A stretch of 1,229 bases of DNA from the NCBI GenBank assembly GCA_000004985.1, contig GG739489.1; one strand, 5' to 3'. Of the stretch, positions 104 to 1,229 are shown piece after piece. Under the pieces are notes generated by a model, which had not been told where the DNA came from, did not search any database, and was given only the letters and a program-made list of their open reading frames with translations. Source of the DNA: Naegleria gruberi. Its lineage: Eukaryota. Within the stretch, counting starts at the first letter, position 1; each line of letters begins with the position of its first letter. Position numbers and translations under genes: made by a program.

Positions 104-114
104 TGTTGTAAAAT
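104..114. repeat. TGTTGTAAAAT 11-mer, copy 1 (copy 2 at 225..235), each preceded by a CCAA..GG motif
   Basis: Exact 11-bp repeat 121 bp apart. The left flanks (ccaaggtttggat / ccaaatgggtat) are also loosely similar, suggesting a larger degenerate repeat unit in the upstream region. Confidence 0.3.
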
Positions 115-167: not shown

Positions 168-175
168 TATAAATA
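168..175 (+). promoter_or_regulatory. Second TATA-like element (TATAAATA), farther upstream
   Basis: Matches the TATA consensus but lies ~390 bp from the ATG and upstream of the repeated elements. It could be an alternative or irrelevant site. Confidence 0.15.
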
Positions 176-200
176 ACTACAAATTAGAAAAATAGCTCAA

Positions 201-223
201 TTTCTGAAAATCACCAAATGGGT
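201..223. promoter_or_regulatory. Copy 1 of a duplicated 23-bp promoter element TTTCTGAAAATCACCAAATGGGT; core ACCAAATGGGT (213..223) is an imperfect ACC-N5-GGT palindrome
   Basis: Seen in sequence: 20 of 23 positions are identical to 261..283, and the two copies start exactly 60 bp apart. The core resembles an 11-bp ACC...GGT palindromic site, the same architecture as the yeast Zap1 ZRE ACCTTNAAGGT, although the central bases differ. Confidence 0.4.
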
Positions 224-224
224 A

Positions 225-235
225 TGTTGTAAAAT
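225..235. repeat. TGTTGTAAAAT 11-mer, copy 2, immediately 3' of the copy-1 palindrome element
   Basis: Exact match to 104..114. It lies within a longer ~35-bp unit (201..235) whose first 23 bp are duplicated at 261..283. Confidence 0.3.
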
Positions 236-260
236 GTGCCCCGAAAAAGCTTTGCAAATA

Positions 261-283
261 TTTCTGAATTTCACCAAATTGGT
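261..283. promoter_or_regulatory. Copy 2 of the duplicated element TTTCTGAATTTCACCAAATTGGT; contains the perfect 13-bp palindrome CACCAAATTGGTG (272..284)
   Basis: Seen in sequence: the reverse complement of CACCAAATTGGTG is CACCAATTTGGTG, so 6-bp arms flank a central A/T and the palindrome is perfect. Core ACCAAATTGGT at 273..283. A perfect palindrome of this length in a promoter is typical of a dimeric transcription-factor site. Confidence 0.4.
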
Positions 284-352
284 GTTCAGTTCGCAAGTTC
301 TTCTTAGTTCATTCATTGCCTTAATATCCTTGTATCCAAAACAACAATTTTG

Positions 353-360
353 TATATAAA
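353..360 (+). promoter_or_regulatory. Consensus TATA box (TATATAAA), candidate core promoter of the 565..732 ORF
   Basis: TATATAAA matches TATA(A/T)A(A/T)(A/G) and lies ~205 bp upstream of the ATG. Sequence downstream of it (380..564) is A-rich and G-poor on the + strand, as is typical of yeast 5' leaders. TSS position is not determinable from sequence. Confidence 0.4.
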
Positions 361-494
361 TTTGTAGATATTTTCCAAGTCTCAACAGAAAAATCTTATT
401 TTGAAACTTTCAAAATTAGAGAAATTAGAAGAGAGAAAGGCACAGGAACAGTAAACAACAAGATATTTACAAACCAGAGTCAACTTGATGTTCA

Positions 495-551
495 ATGAAC
501 AATATTGGAAACGTATTTGAGAATGATTGTATAACTGATCAACAGCAATAA
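495..551 (+). other. Possible upstream ORF (18 codons, ATG495..TAA549-551) in the presumed 5' leader, ending 13 nt before the main ATG; a second short uATG at 488
   Basis: Seen in sequence: ATG AAC AAT ATT GGA AAC GTA TTT GAG AAT GAT TGT ATA ACT GAT CAA CAG CAA TAA. It is only relevant if the TSS lies upstream of 488, which cannot be determined here. The uATG contexts are weak (t/c at -3). Confidence 0.15.
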
Positions 552-564
552 TACAATTAAAAAA

Positions 565-732
565 ATGTCTGAACAACCAACTCAACCAGTCCAACCACAA
601 GGTGAAGAACATAAGGAAAAGAGATGTGCCAAGCACGTTCATGGTGAAGAACACAAGCACGAAGGTGAACACGTTCATTGCAGCAAGCACGTTCACGAAC
701 ATGAAGTCAAGCCAGAATCTGATATGGAATAA
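565..732 (+). CDS. Small (55 aa) hydrophilic His/Glu/Lys-rich protein with two Cys and repeated KHVH/EHVH motifs; putative metal-binding small protein; not in the ORF track
   Basis: Seen in sequence: ATG at 565 sits in an A7 tract (559..565) followed by TCT (AAAAAATGTCT), the yeast high-expression initiation context. Open to TAA at 730..732. Codon choice is almost entirely yeast-optimal (GAA x9, CAC/CAT, GGT, AAG, CCA, CAA, AGA, TCT, GTT/GTC), and no CTG codons occur. My translation: MSEQPTQPVQPQGEEHKEKRCAKHVHGEEHKHEGEHVHCSKHVHEHEVKPESDME. Consensus TATA box about 205 bp upstream, A-rich G-poor leader, AATAAA elements just downstream. The antisense ORF 382..702 uses poor codons (GTG, CTT) and is a Phe/Leu-rich mirror artefact. 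Confidence 0.65.
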   Translation: MSEQPTQPVQPQGEEHKEKRCAKHVHGEEHKHEGEHVHCSKHVHEHEVKPESDME

Positions 733-903
733 ATTTCATTACTATTAAGCTTAATAAATCAGTACTTGATCGACTTTCATATTTCCTATTTGTTGTTATC
801 TATCCATCATTAATCTTATTCAAAATAATGATTTGATGAAAGATTAAATAAATCTTTACAGTTCCAAAATCTGTATTTTGTAGATGAGTTACATCAATTA
901 GTT
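733..903. terminator. AT-rich 171-bp convergent intergenic spacer containing 3'-end formation signals for both genes
   Basis: AATAAA at 728..733 (overlapping the stop), 753..758 and 847..852 on the + strand; T-rich and TA-rich runs on both strands; no ORF. Typical of tail-to-tail yeast gene pairs. Exact poly(A) sites are not predictable from sequence. Confidence 0.4.
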
Positions 904-1229
904 TTATTGCTTGGTAACGTTGAAAATCATGTGACCAGTGAGTGCAGTTCCAACACCAGCAAACAATCCAAGTTGTACAGCTTCTGTTGGAGTAGTAGTA
1001 AATTCAAAGAGACCTTCACCTTGAGTCTTAAAGTAGGCATGATTAAATCTGATAGTATCAATGTTACTAGTGCTTGGGTATTTAATCTTGATATTAACAG
1101 GTTCATTAATCTTGAGAGTACCAGTGTTTGGTAAAATCAATTCACCTTTAGCATCATTCCAGTCCTTGAGGAATACTGGTCTATCAATCTTTTCTCCTGT
1201 AACTTCAAATGACAAGAGACATTCAGAAC
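904..1229 (-). CDS. 3' portion (C-terminal 108 codons plus stop) of a larger gene running off the right window edge; C-terminus has a Thr/Pro-rich linker, a ~20-aa hydrophobic segment and a short polar tail (possible membrane anchor or GPI-type signal)
   Basis: Seen in sequence: the minus-strand frame is open from the window edge (1229) to TAA (complement of 906..904). The track's start at 1215 is TTG rendered as M. Codons upstream of it (..S-E-C-L-L-S-F-E-V..) stay in frame with no stop, and the only nearby ATG (1222..1220) is out of frame. Codon usage is yeast-preferred (AGA, CCA, GGT, AAG, TTC, ACC/ACT, GAA). Protein tail: ...EGLFEFTTTPTEAVQLGLFAGVGTALTGHMIFNVTKQ*. The same-locus + ORF 907..1134 is Ser-rich, shorter and TTG-initiated, so it is judged spurious. 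Confidence 0.7.
   Translation of the reverse strand, partial: SECLLSFEVTGEKIDRPVFLKDWNDAKGELILPNTGTLKINEPVNIKIKYPSTSNIDTIRFNHAYFKTQGEGLFEFTTTPTEAVQLGLFAGVGTALTGHMIFNVTKQ

What the first reader, a model, noticed from the sequence alone, without database searches (positions are those of the whole stretch)
201..284. Duplicated palindromic ACC-N5-GGT promoter element, 60 bp apart, upstream of the His-rich ORF
The 23-bp elements TTTCTGAAAATCACCAAATGGGT (201..223) and TTTCTGAATTTCACCAAATTGGT (261..283) share 20 of 23 positions and start exactly 60 bp apart. The second contains a perfect 13-bp palindrome, CACCAAATTGGTG. The 11-bp core ACCAAATTGGT has the same length and the same ACC/GGT end triplets as the S. 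cerevisiae Zap1 zinc-responsive element ACCTTNAAGGT. The central five bases are A/T-rich but differ: AAATT here against TTNAA in the ZRE. Paired with a His-rich product, this is a coherent hypothesis of zinc or other metal regulation. Alternatively the site belongs to a different dimeric factor. CC-W5-GG is one base short of an Mcm1/SRF CArG box (CC-W6-GG).
Basis: partly seen in the sequence, partly recalled or inferred. Interest (0 to 1): 0.65.

Follow-up and report, generated by a model that had tools for sequence, protein, structure and literature searches.

The report
Paired 24-base promoter repeat, unknown factor

Summary
ATTTCTGAAAATCACCAAATGGGT (200-223) and ATTTCTGAATTTCACCAAATTGGT (260-283) match at 21 of 24 positions, 60 bp apart. 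No dinucleotide shuffle reached this (0/300 for identity, 0/1000 for a composition-weighted score). The similarity has sharp edges and the flanks are unrelated.

The "palindrome" part is weak. Only copy 2 is a perfect 13-bp palindrome, and 69% of shuffles contain one of that size. The conserved unit is asymmetric and extends 13 nt 5' of the ACC.

The Zap1 reading fails where I could test it:
- On a score matrix rebuilt from 86 published S. cerevisiae ZREs, the copies score about 1.2 or lower. The published cut-off is 4.5 and the consensus scores 11.7.
- The C. albicans Zap1 motifs, the A. fumigatus ZafA CARGGT core, the CArG box and the heat-shock element are all absent from the element. CCAAT occurs in one copy only.

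The yeast assumption is also unproven. The only detectable relative of the neighbouring gene is a Naegleria gruberi protein (31% identity), and Leu CTC usage is un-yeast-like.

The most likely reading is a paired binding site for an unidentified factor, 70-130 bp upstream of a consensus TATA box and 282-365 bp upstream of the His-rich ORF. No orthologous promoter or second locus could be found, so function is inferred from position and non-randomness only.

The parts
200..223 (+). Copy 1 of the 24-nt element, ATTTCTGAAAATCACCAAATGGGT. It lies -365 to -342 from the ORF's ATG.
260..283 (+). Copy 2 of the 24-nt element, ATTTCTGAATTTCACCAAATTGGT. It lies -305 to -282 from the ATG and ends 70 bp upstream of the TATA box at 353.
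272..284 (.). Perfect 13-bp palindrome CACCAAATTGGTG, present in copy 2 only. Its minus strand carries the only CCAAT found in either copy.
353..360 (+). Consensus TATA box TATATAAA, 205 bp upstream of the ATG. It is the presumed core promoter of the His-rich ORF (inferred).
565..732 (+). 55-aa His/Glu-rich ORF with 10 His, 12 Glu and 2 Cys, carrying CxKHVH...HVHCxKHVH. It has strong codon bias (GAA 12/12, AAG 6/6, CCA 4/4, CAA 4/4). It is the presumed regulated gene.
   Evidence: no homologue or family
168..175 (+). Second consensus TATA box TATAAATA, 25 bp upstream of copy 1. This is the basis of the rival reading that copy 1 lies at or near a transcription start.

Best explanation
The two 24-nt copies are a pair of upstream regulatory sites for one unidentified sequence-specific DNA-binding factor, or for two adjacent factors. 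One would bind the ATTTCTGAA block and one the TCACCAAAT-N-GGT block. The sites lie 70 and 130 bp upstream of a consensus TATA box and would control transcription of the small His/Glu-rich ORF at 565-732. Two sites 60 bp apart would give cooperative or additive occupancy, as in many eukaryotic promoters. Copy 2 is the more symmetrical copy and would be the stronger site.

Shown: the repeat is non-random, sharply bounded, and lies in non-coding DNA upstream of a TATA box and a codon-biased ORF.

Inferred: that it binds protein, that it acts on this ORF, and that the signal is metal status. The last rests only on the product's composition.
For: - The repeat is beyond chance: 0/300 shuffles for identity and 0/1000 for the weighted score.
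- The similarity stops abruptly at both ends and the flanks are at shuffle level. This is what selective retention of a short element predicts, and it is not what a recent 60-bp tandem duplication predicts.
- The three differences fall at two places only. One is an AA/TT dinucleotide between two perfectly conserved 9-mers, and the other is one base before GGT. This fits a bipartite site.
- The location is promoter-like. There is no credible ORF, tRNA or Rfam RNA in 1-564, TATATAAA lies at 353-360, and the ORF shares the neighbour's codon usage, so it is probably a real and well-expressed gene.
Against: - No comparative evidence exists. I found no orthologous promoter, no second locus with the element and no source genome.
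- No known factor's consensus fits.
- Three upstream ATGs (488, 495, 523) lie between the TATA box and the start codon, so the real transcription start and the promoter geometry are uncertain.
- A chance probability of about 1e-3 to 1e-2 per window is not decisive if thousands of windows were screened.
Confidence: 0.45

Rival explanations
1. The repeat is a non-functional relic. A short patch was copied once, by template switching, gene conversion, or as a fragment of a dispersed repeat or mobile element, and it has no regulatory role.
For: - There are only two copies and no third in the window.
- No known motif fits.
- No conservation data exist.
- The 21/24 identity is compatible with a fairly recent copying event that has drifted little.
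Against: - Slippage-type duplications are normally adjacent and carry their flanks. Here the copies are separated by 36 unrelated bases and have sharp edges.
- TRF finds no array.
- The metagenome and viral scans found only isolated chance matches in unrelated contigs, not a repeat family. Those collections probably do not contain the source organism, so this is weak evidence.
Confidence: 0.3
2. The ACC-N5-GGT cores are zinc-responsive elements bound by a Zap1/Csr1/ZafA-type zinc-finger activator, which induces a zinc-binding His-rich protein in low zinc.
For: - The 11-bp length and ACC/GGT ends match the ZRE. The ends carry the greatest specificity according to PMC2688839.
- Paired ZREs are common in strong Zap1 targets such as ZRT1, ZRT2 and ZPS1.
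- The position, -282 to -365, lies within the 100-500 bp zone where functional ZREs cluster.
- A His-rich product is a plausible metal binder.
Against: - Rebuilt ZRE matrix: copy 1 scores 1.2. Copy 2 scores at most 1.0 before the penalty for T8, which is unseen in 86 sites. The minus strands are no better. The published cut-off is 4.5.
- Positions 4, 5 and 7 each cost about 3.4 units.
- The C. albicans motifs and the ZafA CARGGT core are absent from the element.
- Conservation extends 13 nt 5' of the ACC, which a ZRE does not explain.
- A fungal origin, and hence the presence of a Zap1 orthologue, is not established. The only relative of the neighbouring gene is from Naegleria.
Confidence: 0.05
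3. The copies belong to another transcription unit or to the transcript itself. The TATA box at 168-175 fires about 25-30 bp upstream of copy 1, so copy 1 lies at a start site or in a leader. GTATGT at 222 could open a 5'-UTR intron that removes the upstream ATGs. The repeat would then act at initiator or RNA level rather than as an upstream site.
For: - TATAAATA lies at 168-175, 25 bp before copy 1.
- The only GTATGT in the window abuts copy 1 at 222-227.
- Three uATGs would otherwise burden the leader (sequence).
- A CTGAT...CAG lies at 535-545, just before the ATG.
Against: - There is no TACTAAC or ACTAAC branch site anywhere in the window.
- Copy 2 has no TATA box about 30 bp upstream.
- A single GTATGT is expected by chance about 0.5 times in this window (my own estimate).
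- Rfam finds no RNA.
- Direct repeats cannot pair with each other, so no RNA structure follows.
Confidence: 0.1
4. The repeat is pure coincidence in A/T-rich DNA.
For: The sequence is 70% A+T. A +1/-2 local score as high as the observed one appeared in 4/300 shuffles of the whole window. The finding also comes from a scan of many windows.
Against: 0/300 shuffles reach 21/24 and 0/1000 reach the composition-weighted score. Seven of the 21 matches are G or C.
Confidence: 0.05

Closest known systems
Zap1 zinc-responsive element (ZRE, ACCTTNAAGGT) of Saccharomyces cerevisiae
   Same: It is 11 bp with ACC and GGT ends and an A/T-rich centre. It often occurs in two or more copies a few hundred bp upstream of the ATG. 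It controls metal-homeostasis genes.
   Different: The centre is AAAT(G/T) instead of TTNAA, which costs about 10 units on the published-score matrix and puts the site far below the 4.5 cut-off. The conserved unit here is 24 nt and asymmetric. No Zap1 orthologue or fungal origin is shown.
Candida albicans Zap1/Csr1 motifs (ACCTTGGTGGTTA, TAGTGGTTAT) and Aspergillus fumigatus ZafA ZR motif (DYYVYCARGGTVYYY)
   Same: Copy 2 contains TTGGTG, as C. albicans motif 1 does. A lone CAAGGT lies elsewhere in the upstream region (92-97).
   Different: Neither copy contains CARGGT, and neither matches the C. albicans 8-mers TAATGGTG or ATGGTGGT. The CAAGGT at 92 has poor ZR flanks, and a hexamer hit is expected by chance.
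Mcm1/SRF CArG box, CC(A/T)6GG
   Same: It has a CC...GG frame with an A/T core, and is a dimeric MADS-type palindrome.
   Different: The spacer is 5 bases, not 6, in copy 2. In copy 1 the spacer contains a G. Neither CCWWWWWWGG nor CCYWWWNNGG is present in the window.
CCAAT box (HAP/NF-Y complex; iron-linked through Hap43/HapX in fungi)
   Same: The minus strand of copy 2 reads ACCAATTT.
   Different: Copy 1 reads ACCCATTT, so the pentamer is not part of what the two copies share.

Membership tests
Zap1 ZRE (S. cerevisiae) | 11-bp site with ACC at the 5' end and GGT at the 3' end | tested here: met
   ACCAAATGGGT is at 213-223 and ACCAAATTGGT at 273-283.
Zap1 ZRE (S. cerevisiae) | Overall match to the ZRE position matrix: RSAT score at least 4.5, the lowest bona fide ZRE (consensus 11.7) | tested here: not met
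   I rebuilt the matrix by least squares from 86 published site/score pairs (rmse 0.29). Copy 1 (+) scores 1.2 and copy 1 (-) at most 3.9. Copy 2 (+) scores at most 1.0 and copy 2 (-) at most 0.7. The last three values exclude the penalty for the never-observed T at position 8.
Zap1 ZRE (S. cerevisiae) | A Zap1 orthologue is encoded in the same genome, and the transcript is induced by zinc limitation | not testable with these tools
   The source genome was not identified. No expression data are available.
C. albicans Zap1/Csr1 site | Match to ACCTTGGTGGTTA or TAGTGGTTAT, or to the 8-mers TAATGGTG or ATGGTGGT | tested here: not met
   The motifs come from PMC2688839. Read by eye against the sequence (no pattern scan was run), the element has AAATGGGT and ATTGGTGT only.
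A. fumigatus ZafA ZR motif | Essential hexanucleotide core CARGGT | tested here: not met
   The core is defined in PMC6070888. The hexamers ending in GGT in the copies are ATGGGT and ATTGGT on the plus strand, and TTTGGT on the minus strand. CAAGGT occurs only outside the element, at 92, 598 and 1018.
Mcm1/SRF CArG box | CC-(A/T)6-GG, or CCYWWWNNGG: 10 bp with a 6-bp spacer | tested here: not met
   There are no matches in the window. CC-W5-GG occurs only at 274.
CCAAT box (HAP/NF-Y) | CCAAT pentamer present in the shared element | tested here: not met
   CCAAT is on the minus strand of copy 2 only (278). It is absent from copy 1.
Heat-shock element | Alternating nGAAn/nTTCn units with 2-nt spacing (GAAnnTTC or TTCnnGAA) | tested here: not met
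   The copies contain TTCTGAA and GAATTTC, with 1-nt spacing. The only TTCNNGAA is inside the coding region at 692.

The most novel reading that the evidence does not exclude
The 24-nt unit ATTTCTGAA-NN-TCACCAAAT-N-GGT is the recognition site of a so far undescribed metal-responsive regulator, in a poorly sampled non-yeast eukaryote (possibly a heterolobosean-like protist). It drives a lineage-specific 55-aa His/Glu-rich metal-buffering micro-protein. This would be a metal regulon convergent with the fungal Zap1-ZRE system in having ACC/GGT ends, but not homologous to it.
Probability: 0.1. Interest if true: 0.5.

Novelty: new member of a known kind. Interest (0 to 1): 0.25.

Why it matters
If the pair is a genuine regulatory module, it gives a defined 24-nt handle for finding the regulator and regulon of an orphan His-rich micro-protein. 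Affinity capture, one-hybrid screening or a genome-wide motif scan could all start from it, and the organism's transcription factors are essentially unstudied. As it stands, this is an ordinary-looking promoter direct repeat. The attractive link to the well-known yeast zinc sensor does not survive a quantitative test.

Tried and rejected
1. Finding the source genome or orthologues.
- Exact-product look-ups for four window ORFs and for P0007 found nothing.
- Word-indexed protein searches with the His-rich ORF, the neighbour fragment and a two-sequence alignment found nothing.
- The tblastn-confirmed scan of prokaryotic genomes found nothing, and an exact 32-mer in viral contigs found nothing.
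- The exhaustive HMMER search of 1.8 billion representatives gave only one believable relative of the neighbour gene: the C-terminal domain of a Naegleria gruberi transglutaminase-like protein (E 1.9e-4, 31% identity).

2. Finding other copies of the element. The metagenome and viral scans for TCTGAANNTCACCAAATNGGT gave 10 metagenome contigs and 1 viral contig (the same sequence as one of the 10). G+C ranged from 33 to 69% and no flanking similarity was seen, so these are chance matches.

3. Family and RNA scans. Pfam, PDB sequences, Rfam (E up to 1) and tRNA scans gave nothing.

4. Structure. AlphaFold2 on the neighbour fragment gave pLDDT 41, too poor for a fold search.

5. A degenerate 60-bp tandem array. 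TRF and a five-unit alignment show no array, and the flanks are at shuffle level.

6. A Saccharomyces-type intron starting at GTATGT 222. There is no TACTAAC or ACTAAC branch site.

7. Literature string searches. Searches for the motif, the ACC-N5-GGT notation, peptide fragments, window DNA strings and Naegleria plus histidine-rich returned only primers, papillomavirus E2 sites, restriction-modification systems and bacterial regulators.

8. Consensus scans. Rap1, Reb1, Abf1, Cbf1, Gcn4, Yap, Aft, Mac1, STRE, MSE, Ste12 and GATA have no site in the element. Tec1 and Fkh hits lie elsewhere in the window.

Full report
**What is in the window.** The 1229-bp window is A/T-rich: 29% G+C in 1-564, 23% in 733-903 and 40-47% in the ORFs. 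It holds three regions:
- a 564-bp stretch with no credible ORF, tRNA or Rfam RNA;
- a 55-codon ORF on the plus strand (565-732) encoding MSEQPTQPVQPQGEEHKEKRCAKHVHGEEHKHEGEHVHCSKHVHEHEVKPESDME;
- the last 107 codons of a convergent gene on the minus strand, which enters the window at 1229 and ends at 904.

The two ORFs share one codon dialect: GAA 20/20, CAA 7/7, AAG 12/14, CCA 8/9, AGA 3/3 and GGT 9/12. The short His-rich ORF is therefore very probably a real, well-translated gene.

**Checking the observation.**
- The 23-mers at 201-223 and 261-283 differ at three positions.
- The similarity extends one base further 5', giving a 24-nt repeat (200-223 / 260-283, 21/24, start-to-start 60 bp).
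The best 24-nt window pair has 21 matches, and none of 300 dinucleotide-preserving shuffles exceeded 20, for either the whole window or the upstream 564 bp.
- A composition-weighted local score, in which G/C matches count more, is 28.6 against a maximum of 28.4 in 1000 shuffles.
- A cruder +1/-2 score was reached by 4 of 300 shuffles of the whole window.
- The repeat is therefore non-random at about the 1e-3 to 1e-2 level per window.

ACC-N5-GGT occurs only in the two copies (expected 0.11). That is the same event as the repeat, not extra evidence.

**The palindrome.** CACCAAATTGGTG (272-284) is a perfect 13-bp palindrome.
- At least one palindrome of that size, with arms of 6 or more and a centre of at most 1 base, occurs in 69% of shuffles.
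- The window holds three others, including a 19-bp one.
- Copy 1 is not palindromic beyond its ACC/GGT ends.
- What the two copies share is asymmetric: two perfect 9-mers, ATTTCTGAA and TCACCAAAT, separated by a variable dinucleotide (AA or TT), then one variable base and GGT. It starts 13 nt 5' of the ACC.
- The 3' flank after GGT is unrelated in the two copies.
- A symmetric dimer site is therefore not what is conserved.

**Edges and copies.** A gapped local alignment of 140-245 against 246-351 returns exactly the 24-mer and nothing more. The upstream and downstream flanks align no better than shuffles. TRF finds no array, and a five-unit alignment at 60-bp period is unconvincing. There is no third copy in the window. 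This is not a recent 60-bp tandem duplication. It is either a short element kept by selection or a short patch copied once.

**Promoter context.**
- A consensus TATA box, TATATAAA, lies at 353-360. That is 70 bp after copy 2, 130 bp after copy 1 and 205 bp before the ATG.
- This geometry is typical of upstream regulatory sites.
- Three upstream ATGs (488, 495, 523) lie between that TATA box and the start codon.
- A second consensus TATA box (TATAAATA, 168-175) lies 25 bp before copy 1.
- The only GTATGT of the window abuts copy 1 (222-227).
- There is no TACTAAC-type branch site, so the intron/leader alternative stays a minor rival.

**Testing the Zap1 idea.** Wu et al. 2008 (PMC2535606) list ZRE-like sites with their RSAT matrix scores. 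They give 4.5 as the score of the weakest bona fide ZRE and 11.7 for the consensus, and they show EMSA binding down to 4.7. Such scores are additive, so I recovered the matrix by least squares from 86 distinct site/score pairs (rmse 0.29).
- The penalties are about -3.4 for A at position 4, -3.5 for A at position 5 and -3.4 for T at position 7.
- T at position 8 never occurs in the 86 sites.

| Site | Score |
|---|---|
| Copy 1, plus strand | 1.2 |
| Copy 1, minus strand | at most 3.9, before the T8 penalty |
| Copy 2, plus strand | at most 1.0, before the T8 penalty |
| Copy 2, minus strand | at most 0.7, before the T8 penalty |
| Weak published site ACCAACAGGGT (control) | 4.8 reproduced, 4.9 published |

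All four are far below the cut-off. Nobile et al. 2009 (PMC2688839) note that specificity is greatest for the ACC and GGT ends.

The C. albicans Zap1 motifs (ACCTTGGTGGTTA, TAGTGGTTAT, and the 8-mers TAATGGTG and ATGGTGGT) are not present in the element. The same holds for the CARGGT core that is essential for A. fumigatus ZafA (PMC6070888). CAAGGT occurs once upstream (92-97), but outside the element and with poor flanks.

**Other known sites.**
- No CArG box (CC-W6-GG or CCYWWWNNGG) is present.
- CCAAT is on the minus strand of copy 2 only.
- HSE spacing is wrong.
- Rap1, Reb1, Abf1, Cbf1, Gcn4, Yap, Aft, Mac1, STRE, MSE, Ste12 and GATA consensus sites are absent from the element.
- Literature string searches for the motif and for 'ACC-N5-GGT' returned only primers, papillomavirus E2 sites, restriction-modification systems and bacterial regulators.

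**Is this a yeast?** There is no evidence for it.
- The His-rich protein has no homologue, Pfam family or PDB relative.
- The neighbour fragment has no word-indexed homologue.
- In an exhaustive HMMER search of 1.8 billion representatives, its only believable relative is the C-terminal domain of a Naegleria gruberi transglutaminase-like protein (XP_002671414; E 1.9e-4, 31% identity, aligned to its very end).
- Leucine is encoded by CTC in 5 of 10 cases. From my own knowledge, this is unlike Saccharomyces or Candida.
- Exact-product look-ups for four window ORFs found no contig.
- The tblastn-confirmed scan of prokaryotic genomes and an exact 32-mer search of viral contigs found no related sequence.
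- The scans for the element itself returned 10 metagenome contigs and 1 viral contig (the same sequence as one of the 10), with 33-69% G+C and no flanking similarity. These are chance matches.

**Verdict.** The duplicated element is real and non-random. Its most economical reading is a pair of binding sites for an unidentified factor, or a bipartite site for two factors, upstream of the His-rich gene (confidence about 0.45). A functionless copied patch is the main rival (about 0.3). A Zap1-type ZRE is unlikely (about 0.05), because a defining feature, the matrix score, was tested and not met, and a fungal origin is unproven. A metal link rests only on the composition of the product. I found no second locus, no conservation data and no known motif match, so the finding is of modest interest until the source genome is identified.

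Noticed in passing
window 398-416: A perfect 19-bp palindrome, ATTTTGAAACTTTCAAAAT (9-nt arms), lies 38 bp downstream of the TATA box at 353-360, near the expected transcription start. Arms of 9 or more occurred in only 2.2% of shuffles. This makes it statistically more unusual than the 13-bp palindrome in the finding.
   Followed up: partly
window 488-534: Three upstream ATGs (488, 495, 523) open short uORFs between the TATA box and the ORF's ATG at 565. Either the real start site is further downstream, or translation of the His-rich ORF is uORF-controlled.
   Followed up: no
window 630-722: The His-rich ORF is internally repetitive at DNA level: three copies of a unit of about 39 nt at 630-668, 666-704 and 684-722. 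This gives the near-mirror motif CAKHVH...HVHCSKHVH, a likely metal-binding arrangement with no database relative.
   Followed up: partly
window 904-1229 (minus strand): The convergent gene's C-terminal 107 aa resemble only the C-terminal domain of a Naegleria gruberi transglutaminase-like protein (31% identity, E 1.9e-4). Together with Leu CTC 5/10, this argues against the assumed yeast origin.
   Followed up: yes
window 743-758: A 14-bp perfect palindrome, TATTAAGCTTAATA (743-756), overlaps an AATAAA (753-758) 21 nt after the stop codon. It is a possible 3'-end signal. Overall the window is enriched in perfect palindromes: 4 observed against 1.1 expected, P about 0.02.
   Followed up: partly
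window 104-114 and 225-235: The exact 11-mer TGTTGTAAAAT occurs twice, 121 bp apart, and the second copy lies directly after repeat copy 1. About one exact 11-mer repeat is expected by chance in this window (my own estimate), so it is probably a coincidence.
   Followed up: partly
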